From an uncultured Erysipelotrichaceae bacterium (GTDB taxonomy: Bacteria > Bacillota_I > Bacilli_A > Erysipelotrichales > Erysipelotrichaceae): a stretch of 32,000 nt of DNA. Each line of letters begins with the position of its first letter. Position 1 is the stretch's first letter. The stretch spans positions 510,001-542,000 of the forward strand of contig OW818668.1 in assembly GCA_942493105.1 (NCBI GenBank), read 5' to 3'. This document shows, one piece after another, positions 7,421 to 30,935 of the stretch. The notes under the pieces were generated by a model, which did no database searches, was not told the DNA's origin, and saw nothing but the letters and a program-made list of their open reading frames with translations. The position numbers and the translations under genes are program-made.

Positions 7421-8213
7421 AGAACTCCCCGGTATCTATATCAAAGCTTAAGTTACGCTCTATATATTCCTTCATAACATCTTTTTTATTTCTACTTCGA
7501 GCATATGAAAATAAAGTTTTGAAGTTAACCGCATAGTCTCTAAGTATGTTTTTAAAAATCAAATCCCTTTTAGAATCATCAATAATGGTGAGTAGTGGCT
7601 CTACAAACAAATCCATCATTATTTTTTCGATCTTAGGTGTAGACAGTGACGATTTATCACCGTGATAGTTAAGGTTAAATCCTACATGCTTACTAAATCT
7701 TTTTTTATGGGTTGGGGCTTTATAGATCAGTGTCCTAAGAATGATGGTTGAATCTAACCCTATAAATGATTCTATCTGCTCAATATTCGGTTTTAATAAT
7801 ATATTAAATTGTTTATCTCGACTTAACCTTTCTAAAACAATAGACTCAAAGCCCTTTTCAACTTCCACAAAGCAAACATTTTTAAAAATTTGCATTTCAA
7901 GAAACTGATTAAGAGACTTTAGTTCCCATACACAAATCTCTAGTTTTGGATAAATTAAACTTAGGTCAGTCAATGCAGGCAAAACGATTGGTGAAGGTTC
8001 ACTTCTGTACGTCTTTCTAGAAGATATCTTATATTTGTCAGAGCTTAGTTGATATATGATGTTCTTGCTTGTCAAATCAAAAATCGCAAAACTTTTGCTT
8101 CTGGAATTTAAAAGATCAGATTCTTCATCGATAAATTGATTTAATGTCTTTGAATCAATAACGAACCCTTCAGGGAATCTATTCTTTAGTTTTTCAATGG
8201 TTGATTTTCTCAT
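7410..8213 (-). CDS. abiEi: AbiEi-like (DUF6088-type) antitoxin and transcriptional autoregulator
   Basis: Its position is immediately upstream of AbiEii and overlapping it. The N-terminus (STIEKLKNRFPEGFVIDSKTLNQF...) resembles the wHTH lead of AbiEi/DUF6088 proteins as I recall them. Paired palindromic operators sit in its promoter. The family assignment rests on synteny plus weak motif memory. Confidence 0.55.
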   Translation of the reverse strand: MRKSTIEKLKNRFPEGFVIDSKTLNQFIDEESDLLNSRSKSFAIFDLTSKNIIYQLSSDKYKISSRKTYRSEPSPIVLPALTDLSLIYPKLEICVWELKSLNQFLEMQIFKNVCFVEVEKGFESIVLERLSRDKQFNILLKPNIEQIESFIGLDSTIILRTLIYKAPTHKKRFSKHVGFNLNYHGDKSSLSTPKIEKIMMDLFVEPLLTIIDDSKRDLIFKNILRDYAVNFKTLFSYARSRNKKDVMKEYIERNLSFDIDTGEFYDQ

Positions 8214-12152: not shown

Positions 12153-12163
12153 AGATTCCTCCA

Positions 12164-12188
12164 AACCATACCCGTTTTGGGTATGGTT
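12164..12188. promoter_or_regulatory. Perfect inverted repeat; candidate WYL-regulator operator in the divergent intergenic region
   Basis: AACCATACCC (12164-12173), spacer GTTTT, GGGTATGGTT (12179-12188). This 10-bp perfect inverted repeat lies in the 77-bp gap between the two divergent start codons. Confidence 0.6.
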
Positions 12189-12205
12189 AAAGTATACACT
12201 ATACT
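12177..12205 (+). promoter_or_regulatory. Candidate SigA-type promoter for the PLD-ATPase gene
   Basis: TTGGGT (12177-12182), an exact 17-nt spacer, then TATACT (12200-12205). AGGAG (12215-12219) and the ATG at 12230 follow. The -35 lies inside the right arm of the inverted repeat. Confidence 0.45.
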
Positions 12206-12229
12206 GTGAGAAATAGGAGTGGATTGTCG

Positions 12230-14221: not shown

Positions 14222-14394
14222 TCTCCCATTTCTATATATAACTTGAGTTATCACTAGATTGCTATAATATCTTATACTTTAATTGACTATTTGTGAGCTC
14301 TCTGAACACTATATAAAGTTATATATTAATTCATCCTTTGGAATATGGCTTAATCAACTTGCGTTGGAATCAATGAGCGCTTGATCGATCACAG

Positions 14395-14447
14395 AAAAAT
14401 CCCCACATAGATACCATGAGATTTATTTTCGTGTCTACTCTATGTGG
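14395..14447 (-). terminator. Possible terminator of the 1245-aa gene
   Basis: CCACATAGA (14403-14411) and TCTATGTGG (14439-14447) form a 9-bp stem. On the minus strand it is followed by GGATTTTTCTGT. The 27-nt loop is long for an intrinsic terminator, so confidence is low. Confidence 0.3.
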
Positions 14448-14469
14448 TTAAATTTATTCAGTATAGCTT

Positions 14470-17400: not shown

Positions 17401-18207
17401 AATTAGTATGTTAGCATCTTGAAAATTATCACCTTCATTGTTTGAGAATAATGAAAAAGCAAATCTCGTTTTCCCAACCCCGGACAATCCAGCAAGCCTA
17501 ACTATAGTACTAGGTTTTGATAATAAAATTCGAATTTCACTCAATGCAGAAACAATATCTAACTTATCAGCATCATTATATGAGTCTCTATATAGGCAAG
17601 ACTTTTCATCAAAGACCCATTCCTTTTTGAAACTAGTATCAGAATTTGACCATTCAACAAATGATAGCCATCCTGTAACATTTAGTCCCGTCCGATTTTG
17701 AACCCAAATGCACAAAGAAGGATACTCATTTACCCAAGAAACAATTTTATTGCAATCATAAAATGCAAAGGAAATTTTGCTTTCAGGATCAATGTCTACT
17801 AGACTGCAGCCAATTGCATTTTCGCGCAATATTTGTTCACGATATGTTACATCTGATCTACTGCTTGCAATAATATATTCACCATTATTTTCACGTAAAT
17901 ACGTAAAAATTTCGCGAATTTTCCCATTAGGCTTTATTTCCTCTAAAATTTTCCTATAGGTCATGTTTGGAACCTTGACCTGGATAATAGTGTTTGGATT
18001 TGAAATATAATCTTCAAAATCAAAACTGTTAGTTGACTTAACCAATACATCGACACCACCATCTTTTGCATCCTGGTTTCCACCATAATATACAGATTTC
18101 GAATTTATACCATGTTTACTTAATGTTGCTTCGCATAGTAGACCGATTAAAATCCTCAGATCTTGATCTGATAAATTTTTTATTTCAGTTTTAGTAATTT
18201 CGAACAT
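14470..18207 (-). CDS. Large STAND-type NTPase with an N-terminal Mrr/PD-(D/E)xK-like nuclease domain and a roughly 800-aa helical C-terminal region (Avs/bacterial NLR-like)
   Basis: The N-terminus carries DAKDGGVDVLV...(22 aa)...IIQVKV, matching the Mrr_cat-style D-GG-h-D...Q-x-K pattern. Walker A is GLSGVGKT (aa 240-247, about 17467-17490). Walker B is RIILVVDNCE. The GxP-like element is SGGNFRMAKYLA. A long repeat-poor, helix-rich tail follows. A GAGGT RBS lies 8 nt upstream of the ATG at 18207. Confidence 0.7.
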   Translation of the reverse strand: MFEITKTEIKNLSDQDLRILIGLLCEATLSKHGINSKSVYYGGNQDAKDGGVDVLVKSTNSFDFEDYISNPNTIIQVKVPNMTYRKILEEIKPNGKIREIFTYLRENNGEYIIASSRSDVTYREQILRENAIGCSLVDIDPESKISFAFYDCNKIVSWVNEYPSLCIWVQNRTGLNVTGWLSFVEWSNSDTSFKKEWVFDEKSCLYRDSYNDADKLDIVSALSEIRILLSKPSTIVRLAGLSGVGKTRFAFSLFSNNEGDNFQDANILIYCDMSNNPTPEPITMIQYLLKLNKRIILVVDNCEKNMHTVLSDLCKSPNSLVSLLTIEFDAKEDDLVDTTNYYMSVSSDHTIEMFIKSNFGNINAANLETLISMSGGNFRMAKYLASNINESQTIGVLNSSQILNRLFMNQNILNVPLSRTAEACSLLFSFNIENELGILSNISGISPRDVYENVNLLVDMKLIQVRRNMRAVLPHALANALAIKCLKANRSDEVVKVFLHNRRTLLSFSRRLKFLHSSTEAKNTSKEIINKSGYFDDFENIDSSYIEIIYNLTFVIPDVIKDRIGTITNPEFFSRKNENYNTFVNILIFLGYDDVGFSDVISMLLRFACSEGKNENTYSIRDRVENLFHLFLSGTYATVEQRLKAVEEIVVSDDSNRTDFGLHLVNEMLKTSSFYGYNFDFGAMKRDYGYQPKTYGDQLTWYQKVLDYCQSKIENNYLRGDFKQTISNNFTGLTELGMLGHLENIINNVITTETWPEIWISVLETLHFGGKDIPESIRLRLKCLAEQTKPNNLIDEFNVYISNSRRVYISEDDLDINERHIDEKAFSIGQQFAKDFTLFQRHLSMLLESDNYRMIYFGRGLVCSDIPFDLLFNTVFEYISNSDYTNTPMLLKGMISGKIDDKKTVKEAMQMVLSSDKTKRMFPDLLSSVRIDCDIIQLIKTGLVGDSTSLKQFKNLAYTLVDLTIEEMIDIFQFVPNTNEGIELQISIISVSISKAKFDDRLMDLSADSISRYRFDSRFSKNTHINYEFSIVSKATFGSNKYEVQARKIFEKLYSCLKVEYISFSDLNQVFEPIIRNYPIEFLDIFIRYDTENSGHFLNDFLTGFYGFHQGPLSFIDDEILVKWVQTNNSYELLLKYVLPFNDIDKGKCSWTNLGLLYISKAENTSNLEIIKNLIDRIYPRSWDQTLPDVLTSRIPLVQYIVESRNSKIHEYAINLLSQLHARISHEREHFSERNKEEFNLFETS

Positions 18208-18747
18208 ACATACTTACCTCAAGACATAATTTGTCTATTTATAACGTTTATTTATGGTCTGTTTCGGCTTTTTGTGGAGTAATTTTGAAAACATCCCTTA
18301 ACTCAAAACCACTTATTAATGCTCATATCCAACAAACATTAAAATGATGTCATCTAAGTTTTTACTCATTGTTTTTATTGTACCACACGAATGCTAAACA
18401 CTTATGCCGGCTTAAAAAACTCATCACGGTATCGCATTCACTCTTGGAGGAGCGTTTGGATCATACTAGCACTCACACACATTCCATTACACTTTTATTA
18501 CGACTTTTATGTAAATTGAAATTCATAAAATTGTATTGTAAAAATCACAACTATTTGAAGCGGATCCACAAAGGATTCACGAAAGCAGAAAGTGAATTGA
18601 ATACCTAATTTAAATCCCAATATCGCACAGAAAGCTAAATCAGTTTACACAAGATTTCTGACACTATATTCTGTTTTGCTACTCTCTTAATTTGGTACTT
18701 AACAAATAGACACTTAATAATTCAAATCATTCAAGTATAATATCCTT

Positions 18748-20430
18748 ATGCCCACCATGTATCCTGATTTTCTTCCTAAACCACTAGAAGAGTACTTAAG
18801 GGGAGAAGCTAAAGTGTTCGAAGCTTTTAGAAACCAGCTTAGTAAAGACTGGATTGTTTATCATTGTGTGAACTGGCATATTCCTTCAGATAAACACAAT
18901 AGACAACGAGATGCTGAAACCGACTTTATCTTAACCCATCCACAATATGGAATCTTAGTGATTGAAGTTAAAGGCGGCGTTCAAATTAGATATGTTGCTG
19001 AACATAATCAATGGTTGAGTACAGACTATCATCTTAAAGTTCACGAGATCAATGATCCTTACCTACAAGCCAAACAAAACAAATACAATGTAATCAATGA
19101 ATTGCTTAAAATTCCTGAATTGAGTTTCTATGATAAACAAAGTTTAGATAATAAAATTAGTATAGGATATGCTGTCATCTTTCCAGATGTGACCATTGTG
19201 AATGGATCTTTACCTGTAGAAGCAGCTACCGAAATTACTTTGACCAGTAATCACTTAAGTCACATTGAGGAAATATTGATTTCTTTATGTACTTATTATG
19301 CTTGTGGGAAACAACACAGTACTGCTTTAGCTTTTCAAGCTCACTTGGGTTTAAAGAATCTATTGGCTCCTTCCTTTACCATTGAAAGAACACTGACAAC
19401 TTGGTTTGAAGATGAAGAGAGAAGAATCATTGAGCTTACAGATGAACAATATAACTTGCTGAATTATATAAGACTTGTCAAGAAAGCCAGTATCTATGGT
19501 TGTGCTGGTAGTGGAAAAACGTTGATTGCGATTCGTAAATCAGAATTGTTAAGTCAAGAGAATCAAGGTGTCTTGTTGGTATGCTTCAACAACATCCTTG
19601 GTAAACACTTAGAACATCACTTTAGAAAAGATGAGAATGTCGTTGCAGGATCTTTTTATAATATCCTTTGTCAAGAGTTGAAACTACCCATGACCTATGA
19701 TAACGATGCCCTACTTAAAACCAAGATCCTTGAAGATCATCCTGGTTACTTTGATGCGATCATCATTGATGAAGCTCAAGACTTCTCATCATCTCAACTT
19801 GAGATCATCAAACTATTGCTTAAACAAGATGGCTTGCTTTATTACTTCTGGGATGATAATCAACAAGTCATGAAAAGAGACATCAATGTTGAGTTTGATA
19901 AAGATGCTTTCCCACTGATCTTATCCACCAATCACAGAAATACAGCCAAGATATTTGAAGCAGTTAAACAACATTTCCACAAAGACATAGACATCACTCA
20001 TAAAGGGGTGGAAGGTCGTAATGTTGAGGTTTTAGAACCTTATAAACACAAGAATGCGACAGTATTGTTTGTTCGTCTTAGAGAGATTCTAGATCGCTTG
20101 ATTGATGTTGAAAAGATCAATCCAAAAGACATTGTTATCTTAACTTTCAAGTCTAAAACAAAATCACATTTGATTGATTTTAGTTGTGTATATCCAATTT
20201 GTCTCTTCAGTGATGAAGCTCAACCAAATGGGGTAAGAATTGATACAGTGCGTCGTTTTAAAGGCATGGAATCAAAAGTAGTTATCGTTACTGAAATGGA
20301 TGATGAGCGAAGCTTAAAGGATCCAATGATGTTTGAAGATATGTGTTATGTATCTTTCTCAAGAGCTGTTCATCACTTGATTATCTTGCCTCCGGATAAT
20401 GCTGAACTCTTTTTATCTCAATCAAAATGA
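18748..20430 (+). CDS. NERD-domain nuclease fused to a UvrD/AAA_30-type SF1 helicase
   Basis: The NERD core is DAETDFILTHPQYGILVIEVKGG. The helicase Walker A is GCAGSGKT and motif II is AIIIDEAQDF. The C-terminal motif is VDTVRRFKGMESKVVIV, followed by CYVSFSRA. No SD sequence is present. TATAAT (18736-18741) ends 6 nt before the ATG. Confidence 0.8.
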   Translation: MPTMYPDFLPKPLEEYLRGEAKVFEAFRNQLSKDWIVYHCVNWHIPSDKHNRQRDAETDFILTHPQYGILVIEVKGGVQIRYVAEHNQWLSTDYHLKVHEINDPYLQAKQNKYNVINELLKIPELSFYDKQSLDNKISIGYAVIFPDVTIVNGSLPVEAATEITLTSNHLSHIEEILISLCTYYACGKQHSTALAFQAHLGLKNLLAPSFTIERTLTTWFEDEERRIIELTDEQYNLLNYIRLVKKASIYGCAGSGKTLIAIRKSELLSQENQGVLLVCFNNILGKHLEHHFRKDENVVAGSFYNILCQELKLPMTYDNDALLKTKILEDHPGYFDAIIIDEAQDFSSSQLEIIKLLLKQDGLLYYFWDDNQQVMKRDINVEFDKDAFPLILSTNHRNTAKIFEAVKQHFHKDIDITHKGVEGRNVEVLEPYKHKNATVLFVRLREILDRLIDVEKINPKDIVILTFKSKTKSHLIDFSCVYPICLFSDEAQPNGVRIDTVRRFKGMESKVVIVTEMDDERSLKDPMMFEDMCYVSFSRAVHHLIILPPDNAELFLSQSK

Positions 20431-20473
20431 TTATAGACACTTTATACCCAGGTAATTATTGTAAAATGTAAAT

Positions 20474-23047
20474 ATGAACCAGCATTTTGATTATATTGAT
20501 CAAGTTCTAGGCAAATACAATTATTCTCGTATCGAAACTTTTTACTATTATCCTCAAGATAAACAAATAGTTTCACTATTTTATGATTCTTCTGATACTT
20601 GTATAATCATCGATATCAATATATGTGATCAAAGGAATCCAATTTTCAACTACGAATTCTACACACAAAGACAAAACGAATATATGGCTCAATATTCACG
20701 CTGCTTTAGAATAGTTTATGATGAGAATCTTGAGCGTAAAGTAGATGAACTTTTAAATAACAATAAAGTTTTAGAGTTCTCTAAAGACTCCTATAGTCAA
20801 AGAGATACCCAATATATTGATAACTCCGCTTTGGAATCCGAATTTGAGAATCGTTTTATTGATGTTTATGGTACTGAAGCTTTGGAATTTCTATATAAGG
20901 AGTTTGGATTCTTAGATTTTGAAGGAAAACAGACTTTCTTAGATTTTGTCTTGAATACAGAAAATGGTTATGTTGCTATCGAAGAAAACGGTGTAGGTTT
21001 TCATCATCCGCAACTTATTGGTTTGGAAAAATACCAGAAACAACTTGATAAACAGAATGCATTTTGTTATTTCGGGTATAAGCTGTTCAGATTTTCTTCT
21101 ATGGATTGTGTTAACCGGGACAAAATTAACGATAATATTCGACACTATTTCGGTGATATATCCAAGTTTAAGAAAAAAGAATATGTCATGGGTACACGTG
21201 ATGTTGAACTATATGATCACCAAAAACTGACATTATCCAAGATCATAGAAGACAGAAAAAACGGGAAGTATAATTTCCTCGTTGTGTTTCCAACTGCCGC
21301 AGGAAAATCGAAAATCATTGAAGAAGATCTGAGTAGTCTTCTTGTACTCAACCCAAAATTGAAAGTTTGCATCGTAGCACCGAATAAACCCATTGTTGAA
21401 GATTGGAAGGAAAGAGTTCATAAAGTTCTGCAATCTCTGAAAATGAATCTGAGTGTTGGAGAAGGTATTGAAAATCAAATCATTTGTGCTTCATATTATG
21501 CACTATGGAATAATGCTTATACAATACGTCCAGATTTCTTTGATTACATTGTTATTGATGAGGCCCATCATGCTGCCGCACCGATGATGAGAAGAGCACT
21601 TCAATACTTCACACCAAAATATCTTGTTGGTCTTTCAGCAACACCTGAGAGGATGGACCTACAACAGATAAGCACCATTTTTGGTGAGTACCAAACTCCA
21701 TTAACTATTGAAGAAGCTATGAAAACAGGTGTCATTTCCAAAGCAAGAGCTTATCGTATAAACACTAATTTAGATTTATCTGAAGTTCGCTTCAATGGAA
21801 AGTCATTCAATAATTCCGATCTTGAGAAAACGATTCGTGTTAAGTCCAGAAATGAATTAATTGCGGATGTTATTGAAAGATATTTTACAGAGGGTGAATA
21901 TGGGAAGTTACAGGGCATTATTTTCTGTACGAGCATTGCACATACTGAAGAAATGGAAAAAATCATGAATAGACGTGGCATTCCAACTCTAGCAGCCCAT
22001 TCCTCTAAAAGAGAAGATCCTATAAAACAATATTCAGAAAAGAAAATCCGTTTTTTAGCCAGTTGTGCTCTTATTTCTGAAGGATGGGACAGTCCTCAAA
22101 CCAGCATCGTTGTTATGGCTAGACCAACCTTATCAAAAGCTCTCTACCTGCAACAGGTTGGTCGAGGTTTTAGAAGATATCCAGGTAAAGAAGCTCTTTA
22201 TGTTATCGATGTTGTGGATCAGTATGGATCATTGGCTATCCCTTGGTCAATCAACGCTATATTTCACAACCCCAATTATGTTCCATTTGGCGATCCATCT
22301 AAACAACCACATCTTGGAGATATGATTACTGTAAATGGTATTCAAGAAAAGATTCTAAGTATTCAAGAAATCAATATCAACACATTCGAGAAATCATATG
22401 GAGACATGTTGAGTAGTGAACAAGCCGCTAGAGAACTTTATACTGGAACAAACACGCTTATCAATTGGGTTAAAAATGGAACAATCAAAGCCGATCTCGT
22501 TATCCCCTTCGGTTCTTCGAAACTTTACTTCTTCAAACCGGATTCTATTAAAACGATTCGTGATCTAAAGAATCTTGGTGTTCATGATGATTCAACACTC
22601 TTTACTGACTTTTTTGAGTTTATTAAAGACAAAAAATTTAGCTTCTCATTCAAGATAATATTCATGTTGGCATTAATGAAAAACATTGACGTTAATGGTG
22701 AAGCTATGCTTGATAATGTAAGGAAATTGTATGTTCAGTTCTATCTTGACCGAATTGAAAAGGGTCTTAAAGTTGATCGAGATAATTGTATTTATACCAA
22801 GGAATATCTAAGTAATGAAAAGATCGTTGATAATAGTATTCTATCTAATCCATTTGAGAAATTTGAACGCAAACGATTTGTCTTTTACAGCAAAGATCTT
22901 TCACGCATATCATTTAATCAGACACTTTGGCTACAACTAAAAGAAAGCCATTTTATTGAGATTGAAAAAATAATGGTTAACCACCTGATAGAATATTATA
23001 GAGATATGGATGGGGTACAAGATATCCCATACCTTAGGAGATTTTAA
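20474..23047 (+). CDS. Multidomain SF2 (ResIII/DEAH) helicase with an N-terminal Vsr/DUF559-like endonuclease-fold region, a C-terminal MerR/excisionase-like HTH and an uncharacterised tail
   Basis: The nuclease-like region spans aa ~120-225 (ESEFENRFIDVYG...FLDFVL...YVAIEENGVGFH...YKLFRFSS). Helicase motif I is FPTAAGKS, motif II is VIDEAHH, motif III is LSATPER and motif VI is QQVGRGFRR. The HTH-like segment is LSSEQAARELYTGTNTLINWVKNGTIKA. The tail of about 150 aa is unassigned. Confidence 0.8.
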   Translation: MNQHFDYIDQVLGKYNYSRIETFYYYPQDKQIVSLFYDSSDTCIIIDINICDQRNPIFNYEFYTQRQNEYMAQYSRCFRIVYDENLERKVDELLNNNKVLEFSKDSYSQRDTQYIDNSALESEFENRFIDVYGTEALEFLYKEFGFLDFEGKQTFLDFVLNTENGYVAIEENGVGFHHPQLIGLEKYQKQLDKQNAFCYFGYKLFRFSSMDCVNRDKINDNIRHYFGDISKFKKKEYVMGTRDVELYDHQKLTLSKIIEDRKNGKYNFLVVFPTAAGKSKIIEEDLSSLLVLNPKLKVCIVAPNKPIVEDWKERVHKVLQSLKMNLSVGEGIENQIICASYYALWNNAYTIRPDFFDYIVIDEAHHAAAPMMRRALQYFTPKYLVGLSATPERMDLQQISTIFGEYQTPLTIEEAMKTGVISKARAYRINTNLDLSEVRFNGKSFNNSDLEKTIRVKSRNELIADVIERYFTEGEYGKLQGIIFCTSIAHTEEMEKIMNRRGIPTLAAHSSKREDPIKQYSEKKIRFLASCALISEGWDSPQTSIVVMARPTLSKALYLQQVGRGFRRYPGKEALYVIDVVDQYGSLAIPWSINAIFHNPNYVPFGDPSKQPHLGDMITVNGIQEKILSIQEININTFEKSYGDMLSSEQAARELYTGTNTLINWVKNGTIKADLVIPFGSSKLYFFKPDSIKTIRDLKNLGVHDDSTLFTDFFEFIKDKKFSFSFKIIFMLALMKNIDVNGEAMLDNVRKLYVQFYLDRIEKGLKVDRDNCIYTKEYLSNEKIVDNSILSNPFEKFERKRFVFYSKDLSRISFNQTLWLQLKESHFIEIEKIMVNHLIEYYRDMDGVQDIPYLRRF

Positions 23048-23647
23048 ATGAGTTACAAATATTACGATGATCATGCTGAAGAATACTACGAGAGTTCTTT
23101 CAATGCCAACATGAGTGAAACGATGGAAAGATTCTTGCACTATGTCCCAAAGGGTGCCACCATTCTTGATGCTGGTTCTGGTACAGGCAGAGACACAAAG
23201 ACCTTGCTTGATCTTGGCTATACCGTAAAGGCATTTGATGCTTCTATAGAAATGGTAAAGATGAGCGCTCTATATACGGGAATTGAAACTCTACACGCAA
23301 AGTTTGAAGAGATTGAATATTGTGATGAATTTGATGGGATATGGGCTTGCGCATCTTTGTTGCATGTTGATAGGCACAGCCTTGATCATGTTTTCTTTTT
23401 GCTTAAAAAGGCACTCAAGAAAGATGGGATTCTATATTGTTCTTTCAAATCCCGGGAAAAAGACTACATAAAGGATGGACGTCATTTCACTTGTTTTACT
23501 AATGAGAATCTCGCTAAATATTTGGAAGGAATTAATCAGTTTTCGATAATCGAAATTTGGGATTCCAGGGATGTTAGGGAGGATCGAAAAAGTGAAGTCT
23601 GGGTTAATTGTATTCTCAAGAATGGATCACAAGTTACTAAAAAGTAG
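23048..23647 (+). CDS. Small class-I SAM-dependent methyltransferase (Methyltransf_11/25-like; not a recognisable DNA methyltransferase)
   Basis: Motif I is ILDAGSGTGRDT, followed by the acidic loop FDAS and post-motif GIWACASLLHV. There is no (D/N/S)PP(Y/F/W) motif, no PCQ/ENV motif and no target-recognition domain. The ATG directly abuts the helicase TAA (taaATG), and an AGGAG RBS lies 7 nt upstream inside the helicase gene. Confidence 0.8.
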   Translation: MSYKYYDDHAEEYYESSFNANMSETMERFLHYVPKGATILDAGSGTGRDTKTLLDLGYTVKAFDASIEMVKMSALYTGIETLHAKFEEIEYCDEFDGIWACASLLHVDRHSLDHVFFLLKKALKKDGILYCSFKSREKDYIKDGRHFTCFTNENLAKYLEGINQFSIIEIWDSRDVREDRKSEVWVNCILKNGSQVTKK

Positions 23648-23862
23648 ATTTGTATATTTGTAAATAAAAGGACTAGAAGTAGCCCTGTCTTCCAAAAATA
23701 GTATCAGTTCATCAATGGTCTGGATATTCTCATATGCGGGTATTTTTAACACAATCATTTCCTTACTAGGCTAAACTAGTTATAGTCTAGTATTCCTTTA
23801 TTCACCTAAATTGTTAAGAAAATGAAACCCAAACTTTTAATAATAGGAAACTTTAGTCTAGC

Positions 23863-26826
23863 CTATTTTTTATATTGATGTCCCACTCTAGTGAATGGTG
23901 ATAGGTTAATATAGAGTGTATTGACATCACCTTTTTCCCATTGGCGTTTTTCTAATGTTTTGAACAAATCTTCCTGTCGAGGTTGACCCAAGGTGAGCCG
24001 ATACAATGACAAAACATTAATTAATCGGTCATATTTGATTTTATCTTGACTATATGGGTACATAGGAACAATTCTTTCGATCTTGACCGAGAATGGGAAA
24101 TTCTCGGGTAAACACCAGTATGGAACCAAGTCCGAATTATTTCCCTTCAATTCAATAGAAGCCTTAGCAAGCATTTCTTCCCAGACGTTTTTATGGAAAT
24201 CCATTTTACCAAAATTGCTGTTGGCAATATTTTGTCGTATAGCATGACACATATATCTGTTGATGCGCCCTTCGCGCTGTTCCAAATCAACAGGGTTGGA
24301 TGGGAGGTTCCAGTGCATGATTTTTCGGCTATAGCTATGAAAATCAAGACCTTCTTGACCTATTGAAGTGGTGGCCAGCACGAAAGGTCTAAACGGAGAG
24401 TTAAAAGCGGTCCTGATGTTTTCAGTTCGCTGAATGGTTACTTCACTGATGGTCGCATTGAAATAGCCAGTCGCAAAATGGGTGCGCATGTTGACTTGTG
24501 ACTTGTTTTGCTCGAATTGTTCTCTAGTCTTGATCTGTAGTTGGACAGTATTTATAAAAGCCCCTTTCATGGAGTTGAGCAATTGCTCATCCTTTTCTCC
24601 TAGGACATAAGCGTATTCATCCAATACTGCTTGAAGATTGCCCTCAGCACAATAGCTGAATACATTCTCGTAATAAAACTCATCTTTTGTCTCATATATA
24701 AGATCGATGATGGCAATTGACTCAGGTTTATTGAATAAGGACACAAAACTTGCAGCTAGGTTTGAAGCATATACTTCATTCTTGAAAATTCTCAATGCAC
24801 ATACTGCAGGGGAACCGATCGCCATAGTTGCTAAGGTTTCAGCTGCATTTGATGTGATGGTTAGAAGTTTGTCTGTTGAAGGCTTTCCATCCAAAATTTT
24901 CAGAAGTTCAATCAACTGGGTTGCCCCACCGCGTCCTGCCATGATGTTGTGTTGTTCTGCGATCAGATCAATTTTTAGTTGAATGATCTGTGTCAATTCT
25001 CTTTTAAGTTGAGACAATGGCTTATCTTTGTGATCAAGTGGGGCATAGAGACTAGCCAAATATTGTGAGGCATATTTAACCAGATCTTCAGTCTCTCCCT
25101 TAAGTCTTGCCGTAATTGCGCGTCTTATTTCACTAGCGAAGTATTTTGTGTCGATATTTCCAGTTTTCTGATTGAGCTTACCAACGGTTCTTCTTTCAGC
25201 TTCATAGGAAGTGAGAACAGCAATCATGCGGGGAACCATTTCCCAACTTGAAAACACCAGTAATTTTGAATAATCTTTGTTTTGGTGGAAGTAGCCTTTT
25301 GTTTGATAGTAAGGTAAAGACGCGGGAATCCATAGTAAAAGTTCAGGTCCGCCTTTATCCAAAGGGAACACTTCCTGGAAGAGCATGTCTAGACGCGCAT
25401 TGTTGGTAGGAATGAGTTTATAGTTATTGATCCTATTCTTTCTGATTAGAGCGGTTTCTGCTTTTTGAAGCTGAGTGTAATTTCCACTCTTTTTTAAAGC
25501 ATCAACAACTTTCTCATTGACCTTATATTTCCCCATAATCGATAAGAGATAGGGGGAGGATTTTACATATTCGATTGGAAAGTTTCCAAGTTCCAAACTT
25601 ATCATGAGTTGTTGCATTTGAATGTAAGAATGGATGTCTTCAGGCGTTATCGACATCTCCTTTACTTTAGAAGTGTCGATCATCGCATTATTCATTCTTT
25701 CGGTTCGACATACGTTTCTGTAAAGTTCATCCTCAGCCTTTTTTTTCTGTACAATCAGAACTGTGATGTCATCGGATTTCAACTCTCCTAAAACAGCCGA
25801 ATAACTACTCCATACTTGGTGGAAATACTCCTTCTTTGTTTTGGTAAATAACAGGAAATCCATTACGTCGATGAACTCTTTATAGTGTTCTGTCTCACCA
25901 TTGGATAATTCCTCTATGGTTGTGTAGGGTTTATACGGGGTTGCTGATAAGAGCAATACTTTAGTGTTCTCATTGAAGAGAAAACGGTTTGAAAACATAG
26001 ATCTTTCGTTGCTTTGAACAGCATTCTGGTTGTTATGGTCAGCTATTAGATCTTTGAAGCGCTGGAACTCATCCATGATGATAAGATCAGGCTCCAATTT
26101 TTCCAAACTGATTTGAGCAAAAAGCTGTCTCAGTTCAGTGATGATTTTTGAGCGCTCTGACTTTTTCACCGCAAAAACATCGGTCAATTGTACAATGGAG
26201 AGAATCTTTTGGTACAGTGTGTCCGTCATTTTTTTATTAAGCGCCGTTATCATGTCGTTGATGTAGGATCCGTGTTTATTGTCACATAAGGTCACTTGCT
26301 TTTCATACCATTGTATATTGGATTCCCAATATTTCATGTTTTCTAAGTGTTGTAAAAGATCATTTAACTTGCTCGAGTATAAACCTAAATCCCTGAACCG
26401 GACCAAAAAAACGTAAAGCAATGCCCTTTCCCAATAAGTTCCTTCGCCATTTTTCATAAAAGATGTGGCTGGAGTTAGTGGTATCAATTGGCGTGTGTTG
26501 TTTTTCTCGCCGGCCTTCTGATATATTTTAAGATGGAGCATAGATAAACGACTTTCGGCGATATTTATACAATCATTCTCATCCACACCAAGTTTGCGAA
26601 AATTCTGATTAGCGATGTTCATATTCGAACAGACATAGATAATCCTAAACATAGGGTCTTTCATCTCGGTATGCCAATCATAAACTTTACGCACAACTTC
26701 TCTTGCAATGATTGTTTTCCCCAAGCCGACCTCGTCGGCTAATAGGACACGATTTTGATGATCATCTCTGTAAATCTGCAAAATCCGGTCCGCTGTCGCA
26801 ATCTGAAAATCCTTAGCATTTATCAT
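23863..26826 (-). CDS. SNF2-like SF2 helicase/ATPase
   Basis: Motif I is LADEVGLGKT, motif II is LIIMDEFQRF, motif III is LLLSATPYKP, motif V is TTSIGQEGLDFH and motif VI is LEQREGRINRY. The start overlaps the upstream PLD gene's stop by 4 nt (ATGA). Confidence 0.8.
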   Translation of the reverse strand: MINAKDFQIATADRILQIYRDDHQNRVLLADEVGLGKTIIAREVVRKVYDWHTEMKDPMFRIIYVCSNMNIANQNFRKLGVDENDCINIAESRLSMLHLKIYQKAGEKNNTRQLIPLTPATSFMKNGEGTYWERALLYVFLVRFRDLGLYSSKLNDLLQHLENMKYWESNIQWYEKQVTLCDNKHGSYINDMITALNKKMTDTLYQKILSIVQLTDVFAVKKSERSKIITELRQLFAQISLEKLEPDLIIMDEFQRFKDLIADHNNQNAVQSNERSMFSNRFLFNENTKVLLLSATPYKPYTTIEELSNGETEHYKEFIDVMDFLLFTKTKKEYFHQVWSSYSAVLGELKSDDITVLIVQKKKAEDELYRNVCRTERMNNAMIDTSKVKEMSITPEDIHSYIQMQQLMISLELGNFPIEYVKSSPYLLSIMGKYKVNEKVVDALKKSGNYTQLQKAETALIRKNRINNYKLIPTNNARLDMLFQEVFPLDKGGPELLLWIPASLPYYQTKGYFHQNKDYSKLLVFSSWEMVPRMIAVLTSYEAERRTVGKLNQKTGNIDTKYFASEIRRAITARLKGETEDLVKYASQYLASLYAPLDHKDKPLSQLKRELTQIIQLKIDLIAEQHNIMAGRGGATQLIELLKILDGKPSTDKLLTITSNAAETLATMAIGSPAVCALRIFKNEVYASNLAASFVSLFNKPESIAIIDLIYETKDEFYYENVFSYCAEGNLQAVLDEYAYVLGEKDEQLLNSMKGAFINTVQLQIKTREQFEQNKSQVNMRTHFATGYFNATISEVTIQRTENIRTAFNSPFRPFVLATTSIGQEGLDFHSYSRKIMHWNLPSNPVDLEQREGRINRYMCHAIRQNIANSNFGKMDFHKNVWEEMLAKASIELKGNNSDLVPYWCLPENFPFSVKIERIVPMYPYSQDKIKYDRLINVLSLYRLTLGQPRQEDLFKTLEKRQWEKGDVNTLYINLSPFTRVGHQYKK

Positions 26827-28562
26827 AGTTTAACCTTCTTGGCAGCAGTTTTGAACATTTCCAACATGACTCTTAATTCTGTTGTTGCGACTTCCGGATC
26901 CAAACGGTTCATTACTTCTTCAATCTCTGATATTTTCTTGGGATCAGTGACCACCGACTTCAATAATCGTTCATACAAAGCAGAGGGAATCATATCTTGC
27001 TTCTGTTCCCCTGTTAGAAATTGTCTCTCAAAATAGATTTGCTGTTCCAACGAGACTTCTGCATAATTGTCAGCCAGCATAAAAGTTACATAAGCAAGGA
27101 AACCACCTTTATCTTGGATAACTGATTTGTAAATCATGTTGTCGCGTTCAAAGATGGGTATACCTTTTGTTTGAATTTTTATAACAGCAAAGTCCTGAAG
27201 ATGATTGATGACATAAAACTCCGATAAATCAACCAGTTTTAAACCGGAAATATTGGTTTCCCTTTCCAACTTGACAAAAGCATTAGGAGAAGTGATTGGT
27301 CTGATAAACACGGATTCAGAGGGCTTACTACAAATTACTTTAATTTGGTATCGATCCCCATCTGGAGAAACAATGGCTCCAGTAAAACTACGCAAGACGT
27401 CAATTAGCGGGGAACTGATTTCTTCAGATTCTGGATCAAGTTGCTGATCAAAAGATTCGAGTTTTTCAAATGGACAAGGTTCAGTCTGAAGCAAGTCTTT
27501 ACTCACTGTATAGAAACTTGTAACGCCAGATTTGAATTTTAACCCAACCATGAACTCTATGTTTCTATGAAAGGCATTTTCTGAGGCATTAAGGGAACCT
27601 AAATAAAGATAATTACCGCTGGCGGATCCTTTAAAGTAAATCTTGGCATGAATGTCTCGTCTTGAAGTTGCTTCCAGAACATCCTCTTCAAGAGCATCCA
27701 GATCAACCATACCATCTTTAACGATATACACTTCTTTGAATTGATCGAATATCTTTCTCGTGAGTGAACTCTTTCTAGTAATCAATATTTTATCCTTGGG
27801 TCGTTTAGTTATCCGATCTATAGTCCCTTCAGATAGGAAAGGGGAAATAACGATGAGACTGTTAGCATCAGCCAGCAGAGTTTCCGCCTTTACAGAATTC
27901 TTCAAACCAAAATGATGAAAACTGACTTTTTCAAATTGACCCAAGCCTTCAAAATTAGATACATTTAAAATTTCGTTTGCGAGAGTTCGAATTTTCTTGG
28001 CTTTGGTTGAACTTGCATGGTCTGCCACGAAATTCAACAATTCCGATAATGGATTATTATCATCATTTTTCTTAGCATTTTCCTCAGATGTTGGTCTACC
28101 CGTAAGTTCAACAGCAATGTCCAAACTACGATCGAAAGTGAGATTGCGACTCAAAGTAATAATTTTAATAAGTGAATTACCACTTTTGTTTACATATTTC
28201 AAAAACCAAATTTTGGGGTGGAAGTTGGTATCTTTACGCAGTTTTATTTCAAAGACGCTTTGCTCAAGTAAGGTGAATACTGAACGATATTCTTGAGGAA
28301 CTTTGATTGAACCAAGATTACAGAACACAGCGAGTCTATCGCTGCTTTTTCTAATAGCCTCAAGCAAAAAGAATGGGTTGTTTCGGTGAGTGCTGTCAAG
28401 ATCATCCATCATGCCCAATGAAATTGGTATACCAAGAAGTGCCTCTAAATCCAAAGAATAAGTAAGTCCTACCGCAAACTCTAGTTGGAATCCAGGATCT
28501 GGTTGTAATATATCCCCCATGTTTAGACGATTTATTTCCTGATGAAACAATGTGCTAGCCAT
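26823..28562 (-). CDS. Two-HKD phospholipase-D-family nuclease with an unassigned C-terminal half
   Basis: HKD motif 1 is FHPKIWFLKY...LSRNLT (H115, about 28218-28220). HKD motif 2 is IHAKIYFKG...LGSLNASENAF (H305, about 27648-27650). It overlaps the upstream gene by 8 nt. Confidence 0.85.
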   Translation of the reverse strand: MASTLFHQEINRLNMGDILQPDPGFQLEFAVGLTYSLDLEALLGIPISLGMMDDLDSTHRNNPFFLLEAIRKSSDRLAVFCNLGSIKVPQEYRSVFTLLEQSVFEIKLRKDTNFHPKIWFLKYVNKSGNSLIKIITLSRNLTFDRSLDIAVELTGRPTSEENAKKNDDNNPLSELLNFVADHASSTKAKKIRTLANEILNVSNFEGLGQFEKVSFHHFGLKNSVKAETLLADANSLIVISPFLSEGTIDRITKRPKDKILITRKSSLTRKIFDQFKEVYIVKDGMVDLDALEEDVLEATSRRDIHAKIYFKGSASGNYLYLGSLNASENAFHRNIEFMVGLKFKSGVTSFYTVSKDLLQTEPCPFEKLESFDQQLDPESEEISSPLIDVLRSFTGAIVSPDGDRYQIKVICSKPSESVFIRPITSPNAFVKLERETNISGLKLVDLSEFYVINHLQDFAVIKIQTKGIPIFERDNMIYKSVIQDKGGFLAYVTFMLADNYAEVSLEQQIYFERQFLTGEQKQDMIPSALYERLLKSVVTDPKKISEIEEVMNRLDPEVATTELRVMLEMFKTAAKKVKL

Positions 28563-29718
28563 GTTGATCCAATCCTTTTAAGATGTCCGTGACGATTGTT
28601 AAAACCGTCGGATACCGGTATGACAGTTTATAGTTGTGAATTGGATTTTTATATCGATTGTCGCTGCTGTTAGAAAGCTTTGCTCGATCACCTTTGATGA
28701 GTTTCTCTCGTCGAATAATTAACCTCTTAGCTTCCTCAAGATTGTTTGTTTTTATGTTTTCGTCGAATCTCCTTAGAAACTCCGAAGTTTGGCGTGAACA
28801 ATGAGTAATCCGTATCACAGCCTCGAGGTCAATAGACTGATAGTTCTGAAGCCATTGATCAAAGAGACTTACGATGTTTGAGTCTTTGCCTTCCGAGTAG
28901 ATGACATTGAATAGCAAATGTGCACCATAAATAAAGTTTGCAAAATCTTGAGCCAAGTGAACTAATCGACCCATCTCTTCTGGCAAGTCATTGGGGTTGA
29001 TGTTCTCAAAATTATTTGGTAATTGTTTTTTACTAAGAATATTTGACAAAAGTGTATCTTTGGTTTTTGGTGAGTTTACAATTTGCTGATAAAGAAAGTT
29101 TGCCTCTTCCTTGGTTAAATCAATCGAGGCATCATTCATGAAGTCATAATCTGGGGTTAAAGGAATAAACACTTCCAACCCATCATAACGACTATCTTTA
29201 TCATCAGCAGCATCTTCAGATGTTTCTAATTTTAAAGAAAGATCATGTGATCTCTTTCTTTTTAGTGTTATTAGTTGACATGTATCATCCAATGAAATGT
29301 CATTATTTGTAACGATCCCTAAAACTCTCAGTCCGTTCCAATAGGTGCCAGATGGTTTATACTTCACAGAACCACCCTCGTTTAGTTTACGAGCGCCGAT
29401 GATCCCACTGGTGCCTGCGACTGAATTCTTAACCAATGTTACTACAAGATCGTTCTCTCGATCTTCAATCCATTTTCTAACCTTACCACTTTCCACTCTC
29501 GAATCGGTTTTTGCCTTTTGAAAAAGATAAGGGATCAAGACGAAATATTTAGCTCTAGTATGCAAGGTTGATATACCAGGAAACATCAGATTAGAAAAAG
29601 CGTCCCTAATTGTACCAATCCCCAACTCATCGAGGGCAGTTTGGTTTCTTATATTTCTGAGTATATAAAGAATCTTGTTGCGTTCTTCTCTTGAATAATC
29701 GACCCATCCTAATTTCAT
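28555..29718 (-). CDS. Conserved hypothetical protein, DUF6361-like; first gene of the PLD/SNF2 operon
   Basis: From the ATG at 29718 the N-terminus reads MKLGWVDYSREERNKILYIL...LDELGIGTIRDAFSNLMFPGISTLHTRAKYFVLIPYLF. This matches my recollection of the DUF6361 lead motif, which I could not verify here. The ATG at 29718 follows AGGGGAG. The track's upstream ATG at 29754 has no RBS. Confidence 0.5.
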   Translation of the reverse strand: MKLGWVDYSREERNKILYILRNIRNQTALDELGIGTIRDAFSNLMFPGISTLHTRAKYFVLIPYLFQKAKTDSRVESGKVRKWIEDRENDLVVTLVKNSVAGTSGIIGARKLNEGGSVKYKPSGTYWNGLRVLGIVTNNDISLDDTCQLITLKRKRSHDLSLKLETSEDAADDKDSRYDGLEVFIPLTPDYDFMNDASIDLTKEEANFLYQQIVNSPKTKDTLLSNILSKKQLPNNFENINPNDLPEEMGRLVHLAQDFANFIYGAHLLFNVIYSEGKDSNIVSLFDQWLQNYQSIDLEAVIRITHCSRQTSEFLRRFDENIKTNNLEEAKRLIIRREKLIKGDRAKLSNSSDNRYKNPIHNYKLSYRYPTVLTIVTDILKGLDQHG

Positions 29719-30071
29719 GTGCTCCCCTTCATTAAAACCATCTCTAAAGACCATTATACTATTTGATTATGTCAATTTATTTTGTATAACAGGGAAATTC
29801 AACCTTGTAGCTTAAACTTTTGGAATTTATTAGATTTATAGGAGAGCAGTCACAGTACTATCATGCTGTAAGAAAATGTTAGATACCCTTATACATATAG
29901 TTTAGTCGTCTTTCGGTGGGTGAGTCAAATCTTATCTCTGATAGATTACAACAAAAGCTATCTATTTCATTAAGAAATATAATTCATATTGAGAGTTTAG
30001 TTTCACTAAACTGTTTATAATTGTTCAAATTTAACGAAACATTTTTCAAAAAATTGAGTTATTCAACCATG

Positions 30072-30935
30072 CTACTTTTCTTCTTTTTTATGTAACTTTA
30101 TGTTGAGCTTTCCTAACTGCTTTCCTAGTTTTTGGGCTAGATCTTTAGTTGTGTCCATCGTTTCTTTTGAAATGTCCTTGGTAACTTTACCAATCTTGTC
30201 CATATTCTGGGCTAAGTTTTTAGTTGTATCTATCGTTGCTGCAGATAAATCTTTTGCGAAGTCTTTGGTAGCTTTTTCAAATTTTTCTTTCGCTTCTTGT
30301 TTTTCTTCTTCTTTTTTGATCTGTATAGATTTGCTTTCTAAAATGACTTCATCCGTTACATAATAAAGCCAAACTCGTTCACCATTTTTTAGTTTCGGCC
30401 CGATTTTTTGGTTATTTGGATAAGTGACTCTTGTAACCTGACCATCTTCTTTATTCGCAAAACTTAAGTTGGGTGTTTCAATTTTCTCAGAAACCCTTAA
30501 GCCCAAACTTTCAAGATCTTCTCGTGCTTCATATCTATTAAGCCCAATGACCATTGGAATACTGAACTCACTTAATGCACTTCCCAATAAGTCTTTACTC
30601 TTTTCAATCACTTCTTGAGTGAGATAGTAAACCTTAACTGCTGTTCCTGGACTTACTCTTGATCCAAACTTAGGTTCTGAACTCGTAACTTTGTTTTCAC
30701 TCTCATCTGCATACGCAATATTTGGTTTCGCAATGGCAAATGTTGGAAGCAAGTGAAGTTCATTAAGAACTCGAGTTGCTTCTTCAATGTATACATCCTT
30801 TAAATCTGGAATTTTAATGAGTGCTTTCTGTTGTTCATAGGCATCAGAACCTATTTTCAAACCTAAATCTATAACTTCCGGTACTTTTTCTGCAAGTGCA
30901 TCTACACTTTTTAATGCTGACTTAATCAAACCCAT
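30072..30935 (-). CDS. Protein with two PASTA-like domains and a C-terminal charged tandem repeat; no kinase or PBP domain
   Basis: The first PASTA-like unit is IKIPDLKDVYIEEATRVLNELHL...SEPKFGSRVSPGTAVKVYY. The second is FSIPMVIGLNRYEAREDLESLGLRV...VTYPNNQKIGPKLKNGERVWLYY. The C-terminal repeat is TIDTTKNLAQNMDKIGKVTKDIS followed by TMDTTKDLAQKLGKQLGKL. Confidence 0.65.
   Translation of the reverse strand: MGLIKSALKSVDALAEKVPEVIDLGLKIGSDAYEQQKALIKIPDLKDVYIEEATRVLNELHLLPTFAIAKPNIAYADESENKVTSSEPKFGSRVSPGTAVKVYYLTQEVIEKSKDLLGSALSEFSIPMVIGLNRYEAREDLESLGLRVSEKIETPNLSFANKEDGQVTRVTYPNNQKIGPKLKNGERVWLYYVTDEVILESKSIQIKKEEEKQEAKEKFEKATKDFAKDLSAATIDTTKNLAQNMDKIGKVTKDISKETMDTTKDLAQKLGKQLGKLNIKLHKKEEK

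What the first reader, a model, noticed from the sequence alone, without database searches (positions are those of the whole stretch)
23863..29754. Tightly overlapped DUF6361-like / two-HKD PLD / SNF2-helicase operon (Azaca-like or reduced DISARM-like triad)
The three genes are coupled by 8-nt and 4-nt (ATGA) overlaps. The middle protein has two intact HKD motifs (FHPKIW, IHAKIY). The last has a complete SNF2-type core (DEVGLGKT, DEFQ, SATP, QREGRINR). The first carries the LGWVDYS...DELGIGTIRDAF...FPGISTLHTRAKYF lead.

As I recall it, this content resembles the Azaca (ZacABC) architecture, but I cannot confirm that here. It also shares the PLD plus SNF2 pair with class 1 DISARM, while lacking DrmA, DrmB and a DNA methyltransferase. 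Even if it is Azaca-like, the mechanism is unknown, and the 250-aa PLD C-terminal extension is unassigned.
Basis: partly seen in the sequence, partly recalled or inferred. Interest (0 to 1): 0.6.

Follow-up and report, generated by a model that had tools for sequence, protein, structure and literature searches.

The report
Ordinary Azaca (ZacABC) anti-phage operon
These three overlapping genes are a complete copy of the already described Azaca anti-phage system (helper protein, DNA-cutting PLD enzyme, ATP-driven motor) in a defence island of a gut Firmicute; it is a real defence operon but not a new kind.

Summary
Three minus-strand ORFs (28555-29754, 26823-28562, 23863-26826) overlap by 8 nt and 4 nt, and every quoted motif sits at the stated residue.

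The PADLOC models settle the identity. All three match end to end: ZacA 2.8e-91, ZacB 1.6e-135, ZacC 1.5e-271. Pfam also finds DUF6361 in the first protein. The order zacA-zacB-zacC is kept in 60 of 62 evaluable species genomes, spanning several bacterial phyla and one archaeon. DISARM is rejected: only marginal or partial DrmC/DrmD hits, and no DrmB or DNA-methyltransferase model match.

The mechanism is no longer wholly unknown. bioRxiv 10.1101/2025.07.10.664194 shows that homologous Azaca operons block T4. A ZacABC complex cleaves T4 DNA, and cleavage needs all three subunits, the PLD active site and the ZacC Walker A motif.

Corrections:
- zacA probably starts at 29718 (387 aa).
- The ZacB motifs are HxK...N without the canonical Asp, with Tdp1 and PLD3 as closest folds.
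- The ZacB extension is about 220 aa.

Still open for the whole family: ZacA gives a confident all-alpha model with no PDB or BFVD fold match, and the ZacB C-terminal domain has no sequence match.

This scan had already found Azaca in at least 29 other genomes. Low interest; new member of a known kind.

The parts
28555..29718 (-). zacA. DUF6361 protein, probably 387 aa; the open frame reaches up to 29754, giving 399 aa. All-alpha protein whose fold has no solved counterpart. A required third subunit in the homologous system.
   Evidence: - PADLOC ZacA 2.8e-91, model positions 4-394 of 396; Pfam DUF6361 5.5e-23.
- Start: GAAGGGGAG lies upstream of the ATG at 29718, while the ATG at 29754 overlaps TATAAT. 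Homologues are mostly 387-400 aa and begin at profile position 1.
- AF2 model: pLDDT 84, pTM 0.81, all helices.
- No fold match in PDB (best E 0.66) or BFVD (best E 0.28).
26823..28562 (-). zacB. PLD-superfamily nuclease, 579 aa. Residues about 1-360 form a two-lobed PLD core with H115/K117/N140 and H305/K307/N325. An acidic linker follows, then a beta domain (about 393-462) and a helical bundle (about 470-578) of unassigned function.
   Evidence: - PADLOC ZacB 1.6e-135, model positions 4-583 of 586.
- The catalytic residues are invariant in 61 homologues.
- AF2 model: pLDDT 86, pTM 0.88.
- Foldseek: Tdp1 7e-9, PLD3 9e-8. Profile search: NucT 0.005, BfiI 0.06.
- The C-terminal domain has no Pfam match and no significant PDB sequence match.
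23863..26826 (-). zacC. SF2 helicase/translocase-type ATPase, 987 aa. RecA1 is about 1-300, a roughly 490-aa insert has no known domain, and RecA2 motifs V-VI lie at about 800-860.
   Evidence: - PADLOC ZacC 1.5e-271, model positions 12-1018 of 1019; Pfam ResIII and Helicase_C.
- Motifs conserved at 95% or more in 61 ZacC sequences: Q, I (G34/G36/K37/T38), II (D252-Q255), III (S294-T296), V (T819-D828), VI (Q850-R857).
- The insert, residues 300-790, has no Pfam hit.
23669..23686 (-). Terminator-like hairpin followed by a T-run, about 180 nt downstream of the zacC stop. Candidate operon terminator, in the gap between zacC and the convergent methyltransferase gene.
   Evidence: Consensus scan only; not tested.
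29899..29928 (-). Candidate sigma-70-like promoter, TTGACT-18-TAAACT, in the 317-nt gap upstream of zacA. A TATAAT box at 29753-29758 is a second candidate -10 element, without a well-spaced -35.
   Evidence: Consensus scan gives 9 of 12 matches; sequence read directly. Not tested.

Best explanation
The locus is a complete, single-copy Azaca (zacA-zacB-zacC) anti-phage operon. The most likely working is as follows.

1. The three translationally coupled products assemble into one ZacABC complex.
2. ZacC, an SF2 ATPase, binds double-stranded DNA and uses ATP to license or drive cleavage.
3. ZacB cuts the DNA. It has one composite PLD active site built from two HxK...N half-sites, and would act through a covalent phospho-histidine intermediate, at very degenerate sites.
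4. ZacA is an obligatory structural or targeting subunit with a fold not seen so far.
5. The operon has no methyltransferase, so self-protection is probably not by host methylation. The tested homologue prefers hypermodified T4 DNA. The most likely discrimination is therefore type-IV-restriction-like: attack on modified or otherwise marked phage DNA.

Shown here: identity, intact catalytic residues, folds and conserved linkage. Shown elsewhere, on homologues only: complex formation, T4 DNA cleavage and the subunit and active-site requirements. Inferred: the modification cue, the role of ZacA and the target phages in this host.
For: - **Identity.** Full-length PADLOC ZacA, ZacB and ZacC hits; DUF6361.
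- **Operon.** Overlaps of 8 nt and 4 nt, each with a Shine-Dalgarno-like sequence upstream.
- **Linkage.** zacA-zacB-zacC are colinear in 60 of 62 evaluable species genomes. One of the two exceptions, L081, is also colinear but aligns poorly over the ZacB C-terminus. Four of four further contigs agree.
- **Catalytic residues.** ZacB H115/K117/N140 and H305/K307/N325 are invariant. ZacC motifs I-VI are conserved at 95% or more and are present here.
- **Fold.** The ZacB core resembles the DNA-acting PLD enzymes Tdp1 and PLD3, NucT, and more weakly BfiI (E 0.06).
- **Biochemistry on homologues** (bioRxiv 10.1101/2025.07.10.664194).
  - BmAzaca and KpAzaca defend against T4; Azaca gives more than 1e6-fold protection.
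  - Only ZacABC cleaves T4 double-stranded DNA, at 5' A|NT.
  - PLD active-site and ZacC Walker A mutants are dead.
  - The authors propose glucosyl-hydroxymethylcytosine as a possible cue.
- **Context and distribution.** The operon sits in a defence island. It is sporadic among relatives, in 2 of 61 genomes.
Against: - Nothing here was tested on this copy. It is only about 30-45% identical to most homologues, and its identity to the tested BmAzaca and KpAzaca proteins is unknown.
- In the preprint, mutating conserved ZacA residues changed neither complex formation nor cleavage, so no role for ZacA is established.
- Modification dependence is the authors' suggestion, not a demonstrated requirement.
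- Mass photometry of the Azaca complex was unstable, so its stoichiometry is unknown.
- Operon GC equals genome GC, at 38.2%, so composition gives no sign of recent transfer.
Confidence: 0.9

Rival explanations
1. This is Azaca, but it is not modification-directed. The complex senses a phage-induced DNA state (free ends, damage, replication intermediates) or a phage protein. It then degrades DNA indiscriminately, as the Hachiman helicase-nuclease complex does, so the outcome is closer to abortive infection.
For: - The cleavage motif of BmAzaca is highly degenerate (A|NT) and cuts fall all over T4 DNA.
- No recognisable modified-base reader domain was found in ZacA, the ZacB C-terminal domain or the ZacC insert.
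- Other nuclease-helicase systems work this way (Hachiman; listed).
Against: - BmAzaca showed a clear preference for T4 double-stranded DNA over the other substrates tested in vitro, with no infection cue present.
- Its defence is narrow, aimed at T-even phages.
Confidence: 0.3
2. The triad is a reduced class 1 DISARM: a DrmC-like PLD and a DrmD-like SNF2 helicase that have lost DrmA, DrmB and the methyltransferase.
For: - Weak PADLOC hit of ZacB to DrmC (2e-4).
- Partial hits of ZacC to DrmD (1.6e-13) and to NCBIfam DISARM_DrmD (57.6 bits against a cut-off of 610).
Against: - The same proteins match the ZacB and ZacC models end to end with E-values more than 100 orders of magnitude better.
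- The DrmD hits cover only about 65 residues, around motifs V-VI.
- No DrmB or DNA-methyltransferase model matches the neighbouring ORFs, and the only DrmA hit is ZacC's own partial one.
- The first gene is DUF6361, which is not a DISARM component.
- The triad is a fixed unit across phyla.
Confidence: 0.02
3. ZacB acts on phospholipids rather than DNA, as a membrane-damaging effector, as the name PLD suggests.
For: One bacterial phospholipase D structure appears among the fold matches (7e0m, E 2.7e-7).
Against: - The best fold and profile matches are DNA-acting PLD enzymes: Tdp1, PLD3 and NucT, with BfiI only weakly at E 0.06.
- The homologous complex cleaves DNA in vitro in a PLD-site-dependent way.
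- Its partner is a DNA-motor-type ATPase.
Confidence: 0.02

Closest known systems
Azaca (ZacA/ZacB/ZacC). To my own knowledge it was named by Millman et al. 2022, Cell Host Microbe. The 2022 preprint text held here does not mention it. Biochemistry of BmAzaca and KpAzaca is in bioRxiv 10.1101/2025.07.10.664194.
   Same: - Three components in the same order.
- End-to-end matches to all three PADLOC models.
- The same catalytic residues.
- Defence-island setting.
   Different: - A divergent copy from a gut Firmicute. The nearest database relatives are 59-61% identical, and most are 41-45%.
- Untested experimentally.
- No architectural difference was found.
Class 1 DISARM (DrmA, DrmB, DrmC PLD, DrmD SNF2 helicase, DrmMI methyltransferase)
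   Same: It pairs a PLD-family protein with an SNF2-like SF2 ATPase in a defence island.
   Different: - No DrmB and no methyltransferase; the only DrmA similarity is ZacC's own partial hit.
- The similarity to DrmC and DrmD is marginal or partial.
- A DUF6361 subunit is present instead.
ATP-dependent type IV restriction enzymes with a PLD nuclease and an SF2 helicase, for example SauUSI. This comparison rests on my own knowledge and on earlier scan notes.
   Same: - PLD nuclease plus SF2 ATPase.
- No cognate methyltransferase.
- The homologue prefers modified phage DNA.
   Different: - Three separate subunits rather than one polypeptide.
- No identifiable modified-base reader domain.
- Modification dependence is not demonstrated.
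- An extra DUF6361 subunit.
Tdp1 and PLD3/PLD4 (eukaryotic DNA-acting PLD enzymes)
   Same: - The best fold matches of the ZacB core (E 7e-9 and 9e-8).
- A single chain with two half-sites.
- HxK...N motifs lacking the canonical Asp, as in the Tdp1 'HKN' motifs (the Tdp1 detail is my own knowledge).
   Different: - About 10-14% identity, TM about 0.35-0.48; the shared fold does not make it a family member.
- ZacB carries a roughly 220-aa extra C-terminal domain.
- ZacB works only with ZacA and ZacC.

Membership tests
Azaca | ZacA: stand-alone DUF6361 protein of about 390 aa | tested here: met
   PADLOC ZacA 2.8e-91 over model positions 4-394 of 396. Pfam DUF6361 82 bits against a cut-off of 25.
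Azaca | ZacB: PLD-family nuclease with two HxK half-sites | tested here: met
   PADLOC ZacB 1.6e-135 over positions 4-583 of 586. H115/K117/N140 and H305/K307/N325 are invariant. Double PLD fold.
Azaca | [quoted passage not shown] | tested here: met
   PADLOC ZacC 1.5e-271 over positions 12-1018 of 1019. GLGKT at 34-38 and DEFQ at 252-255 are present and conserved.
Azaca | The three genes are adjacent, on one strand, in the order A-B-C | tested here: met
   Overlaps of 8 nt and 4 nt here. The same order in 60 of 62 evaluable loci and in 4 of 4 further contigs.
Azaca | Protects against phage; ZacABC complex cleaves phage DNA | not testable with these tools
   Shown only for BmAzaca and KpAzaca in bioRxiv 10.1101/2025.07.10.664194.
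DISARM class 1 | DrmA helicase, DrmB (DUF1998) and DrmMI methyltransferase present | tested here: not met
   A PADLOC scan of the ORFs from 8.3 to 31 kb found no DrmB or DNA-methyltransferase model. The only DrmA hit is ZacC's own partial one, and the neighbouring 199-aa methyltransferase hits only mad2 and general small methyltransferase domains.
DISARM class 1 | DrmC and DrmD orthology of the PLD and helicase genes | tested here: not met
   DrmC 2e-4, partial. DrmD 1.6e-13 over about 65 residues. NCBIfam DrmD 57.6 bits against a cut-off of 610.
Classical HKD PLD motif | HxK(x)4D in each half-site | tested here: not met
   The pattern H.K....D is absent from ZacB, and no conserved Asp lies 5 residues after the Lys in 61 homologues. 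The HxK and downstream Asn are kept.
SNF2 family (Pfam SNF2-related domain) | Match to the SNF2 N-terminal domain model | tested here: not met
   At E <= 0.01 Pfam gives only ResIII, Helicase_C, AAA_22 and DEAD. RapA, DrmD and DpdE are hit only over short stretches.
Type IV (modification-dependent) restriction | Cleaves modified DNA only; no cognate methyltransferase | tested here: inconclusive
   There is no methyltransferase in the operon. The preference for modified T4 DNA is reported for BmAzaca only, and dependence on the modification has not been shown.

The most novel reading that the evidence does not exclude
ZacA (a confident all-alpha model with no PDB or BFVD fold match) or the unassigned ZacB C-terminal beta-plus-helical domain is a new kind of reader for hypermodified phage DNA. 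Azaca would then be a three-subunit, ATP-dependent type IV restriction machine built on a recognition fold not yet described. This would hold for the whole family, not just this copy.
Probability: 0.25. Interest if true: 0.55.

Novelty: new member of a known kind. Interest (0 to 1): 0.18.

Why it matters
For annotation, the locus can be labelled zacA, zacB and zacC, and the surrounding 6-30 kb can be called a multi-system defence island of a gut Firmicute.

Scientifically, this copy adds little beyond another divergent sequence. The open questions belong to the whole Azaca family:
- what ZacA does;
- what the ZacB C-terminal domain and the 490-aa ZacC insert do;
- how the system tells self from non-self.

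The models made here give a starting point for those questions. They show a confident ZacA fold without a known counterpart, a Tdp1/PLD3-like ZacB core without the canonical Asp, and a conserved GIPxxERDxAIY stretch in the ZacB C-terminal domain.

Tried and rejected
- **First genome-contig scan** with the single ZacA protein found nothing. The repeat with the alignment found 391 loci.
- **Island borders by synteny** with same-genus genomes led nowhere. The left-flank histidine kinase is found, at 42-73% identity. The right-flank ABC gene has only weak hits at other places. The borders were left undefined.
- **tRNA genes, flanking direct repeats and Rfam families**: none were informative.
- **ZacB C-terminal domain**: no Pfam hit at E <= 10, and the PDB profile hits are insignificant, with a best E of 0.13.
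- **ZacC insert, residues 300-790**: no Pfam hit.
- **ZacA**:
  - no further Pfam family at E <= 10;
  - no NCBIfam model;
  - no significant PDB sequence match, best E 0.065;
  - no fold match in PDB or BFVD;
  - no sign of fusions among the best 150 representatives; two are longer (504 and 602 aa) and were not inspected.
- **Millman 2022 preprint**: the text held here does not contain the word Azaca. The attribution of the name rests on my own knowledge and on later papers that cite it.
- **DISARM and phospholipase readings**: considered and rejected; see the rival explanations.
- **Fold of the ZacB C-terminal domain alone**: not searched.
Full report
**1. Observation**

ORF listing and translation confirm three minus-strand frames: 28555..29754 (399 aa), 26823..28562 (579 aa) and 23863..26826 (987 aa). 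The junctions read ...CAACATGGCTAGC... and ...AAACTATGATAA... These give overlaps of 8 nt (ATGGCTAG) and 4 nt (ATGA), each with a purine-rich Shine-Dalgarno-like stretch upstream.

- ZacA: LGWVDYS 15-21, DELGIGTIRDAF 42-53, FPGISTLHTRAKYF 58-71.
- ZacB: H115 and H305.
- ZacC: K37, DEFQ 252-255, SATP 294-297, QREGRINR 850-857.

Three details need correction.

- **Start of zacA.** The ATG at 29754 overlaps the last two bases of a TATAAT box and has no ribosome-binding site. The ATG at 29718 is preceded by GAAGGGGAG. The ZacA model starts aligning at residue 14. Most homologues are 387-400 aa. In the profile search, profile position 1 (M13 here) coincides with residue 1 of most representatives. 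zacA is therefore probably 28555..29718, 387 aa.
- **HKD motifs.** The pattern HxK(x)4D does not occur in ZacB. The invariant residues across 61 homologues are H115/K117/N140 and H305/K307/N325. These are HxK...N half-sites without the canonical Asp.
- **C-terminal extension.** It begins near residue 360, so it is about 220 aa rather than 250.

**2. Identity**

PADLOC-DB models match all three proteins end to end:

| Protein | Model | E-value | Model positions |
|---|---|---|---|
| first | ZacA | 2.8e-91 | 4-394 of 396 |
| middle | ZacB | 1.6e-135 | 4-583 of 586 |
| last | ZacC | 1.5e-271 | 12-1018 of 1019 |

Pfam finds DUF6361 in the first protein (82 bits, cut-off 25). It finds nothing in the second. 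In the third it finds only ResIII and Helicase_C above their cut-offs, with weaker AAA_22 and DEAD hits. NCBIfam has no model for ZacA or ZacB, and gives only sub-threshold partial hits of ZacC to DpdE, DrmD and RapA. No chain in the PDB is a sequence relative of ZacA. ZacB touches NucT and BfiI only weakly, and ZacC touches RapA only weakly.

**3. Linkage and distribution**

A pattern scan of one genome per species found 391 genomes encoding a ZacA relative. The best 80 loci were fetched. Of these, 62 have at least 4.6 kb downstream of zacA. In 60 of them zacB and zacC follow directly on the same strand.

Of the two exceptions, L081 is also colinear but its ZacB C-terminus aligns poorly. L041 is an N-terminally truncated orphan zacA. 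Four further contigs show the same three genes, with products of about 390, 575 and 985 aa.

The hosts span Bacillota, Cloacimonadota, Planctomycetota, Desulfobacterota, Bacteroidota, Spirochaetota, Fusobacteriota and a methanogen. ZacC relatives also occur on plasmids of Proteobacteria, Bacteroidota and a haloarchaeon. One occurs on a 'Bacteriophage sp.' record from human faeces.

Among 61 genomes of the same genus, family and order, only 2 carry ZacA, which is the sporadic pattern typical of defence genes. The ZacA family is large: 3061 clusters at 50% identity with E <= 1e-3. Its best 150 representatives are nearly all about 390-430 aa (two are longer), so I saw no sign of fusions.

In this genome the operon is single-copy. 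Its GC content (38.2%) equals the genome mean (38.2%). The neighbouring island segment 11.2-23.6 kb is at 33.6%.

**4. Context**

The window runs as follows.
- **Cell-envelope housekeeping genes, 0.3-6.1 kb:** S41 peptidase, PcsB-like M23 peptidase, FtsX, an ABC-transporter ATPase (FtsE-like by position; my reading), YitT, VanZ.
- **Defence island:**
  - an AbiEii/DUF6577 pair (6.3-8.2 kb);
  - a two-component system;
  - a WYL regulator with a PLD-domain protein;
  - a PD-Lambda-4_A protein (3.2e-178);
  - a NERD-UvrD helicase;
  - a ResIII nuclease-helicase with a small methyltransferase;
  - Azaca;
  - a PASTA-domain protein.

Earlier scan notes on the neighbouring genes agree with this picture. 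No tRNA gene, flanking direct repeat or Rfam family marks the borders.

**5. Structure**

- **ZacA.** AlphaFold2 with 62 sequences gives a confident all-helical model (pLDDT 84, pTM 0.81). Residues 1-40 are poorly modelled, although G16, S21 and neighbouring residues are invariant or nearly so. Foldseek finds nothing significant in the PDB (best E 0.66, TM <= 0.15) or in BFVD (best E 0.28).
- **ZacB.** The model is confident (pLDDT 86, pTM 0.88).
  - It has a two-lobed alpha/beta core up to about residue 360.
  - An acidic linker follows.
  - Then come a beta domain (393-462) and a helical bundle (470-578).
  - The core matches Tdp1 best (E 7e-9), then PLD3 (9e-8). Together with the missing Asp, this puts it nearer the DNA-acting 'HKN'-type PLD enzymes than classical phospholipases. 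The Tdp1 motif detail is from my own knowledge.
  - The C-terminal domain has its own invariant residues (P469, R473, F488, Y530, E531, L534), but no Pfam match and no significant PDB sequence match.
- **ZacC.** It keeps SF2 motifs Q, I, II, III, V and VI at 95% conservation or more across 61 sequences. The roughly 490-residue insert between the RecA lobes has no Pfam match.

**6. What is known**

A full-text search found one experimental study, bioRxiv 10.1101/2025.07.10.664194. It reports the following.
- BmAzaca and KpAzaca defend against T4. Azaca gives more than 1e6-fold protection and is narrow in range.
- Purified BmAzaca prefers T4 double-stranded DNA.
- Only the three-protein ZacABC preparation cleaves; single subunits and pairs do not.
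- Mutants of the PLD active site and of the ZacC Walker A motif are inactive.
- Mutations of conserved ZacA residues affect neither complex formation nor cleavage.
- The cut site is degenerate (5' A|NT).
- The authors suggest glucosyl-hydroxymethylcytosine as a possible cue.
- Mass photometry of the complex was not stable enough to give a stoichiometry.

'Mechanism unknown' is now only partly true.

**7. Mechanism and rivals**

My best reading is an ATP-dependent, three-subunit PLD nuclease complex that degrades phage DNA. Discrimination is probably by a feature of phage DNA rather than by host methylation, because the operon has no methyltransferase.

- **Main rival (about 0.3).** The same complex responds to a DNA state or to a phage protein rather than to base modification.
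- **DISARM.** Rejected on tested grounds.
- **Lipid-directed PLD.** Rejected on fold matches and on the published DNA cleavage.

**8. Verdict**

This is a canonical, complete Azaca operon: a new and rather divergent member of a known system. Its nearest relatives are 59-61% identical, from uncultured Erysipelotrichaceae and metagenomes. This scan has already reported Azaca or Azaca-like cassettes in at least 29 other genomes.

Interest is low. What remains open (the ZacA fold and role, the ZacB C-terminal domain, the ZacC insert, the self/non-self cue) concerns the family, not this locus.

Noticed in passing
L003:5362-7974; L005:5417-8019; L006:4317-5450; also L012, L013, L016, L036, L043, L053, L054, L066: In at least 8 of the 80 species-genome loci, plus 3 other contigs, zacABC is flanked by some or all of three genes. 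These encode a Macro-domain protein (about 340 aa), a 216-aa protein whose N-terminus has a DxSxS stretch that looks vWA-like to me (untested), and an ADP-ribosylglycohydrolase. They lie sometimes upstream (overlapping the zacA start in L005) and sometimes downstream. None of them is in this window. They may be a separate ADP-ribose-related module that travels with Azaca, or an accessory to it.
   Followed up: partly
window 6338-8213 (-): An AbiEii nucleotidyltransferase gene (360 aa) overlaps a DUF6577 gene (267 aa). It looks like a type IV toxin-antitoxin or Abi-like pair at the left edge of the island.
   Followed up: no
window 11232-23647: The rest of the island holds a WYL regulator with a 671-aa PLD-domain protein, a PD-Lambda-4_A protein (3.2e-178), a NERD-UvrD helicase (the PADLOC DRT-associated model RTasNERD-Hel, 5.7e-89, although no reverse transcriptase was found among the ORFs scanned) and a ResIII nuclease-helicase with a small methyltransferase. 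This segment has 33.6% GC against 38.2% for the genome.
   Followed up: partly
MT835621.1:16149-19331 (hit H1): A 24-kb unannotated 'Bacteriophage sp.' record from human faeces encodes a full-length ZacC relative (39.5% identity over 99% of the query). Azaca may be carried by a phage, a prophage fragment or a misbinned contig.
   Followed up: no
L041:8001-9068: An orphan zacA relative that lacks the N-terminal 39 residues, with no zacB or zacC within 8 kb downstream. It is the only clear break of the three-gene linkage among 62 evaluable loci.
   Followed up: no
L080 (Candidatus Methanocrinis natronophilus); H10 (Halomarina sp. plasmid NZ_CP100458.1): L080 carries a colinear zacABC and the Halomarina plasmid a ZacC relative, so Azaca genes occur in archaea as well as bacteria.
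   Followed up: no
window 30072-30935 (-): A 287-aa protein with a PASTA domain (5.8e-12) lies directly upstream of zacA on the same strand, separated by 317 nt. No PADLOC model matches it, and it is not found next to zacA in the other loci inspected.
   Followed up: no
ZacA residues 13-40 (window 29637-29718): The N-terminal segment of ZacA holds invariant or nearly invariant residues (M13, G16, D19, S21, E24-N26), yet it is modelled with pLDDT below 50. It may fold only against a partner subunit or DNA.
   Followed up: no
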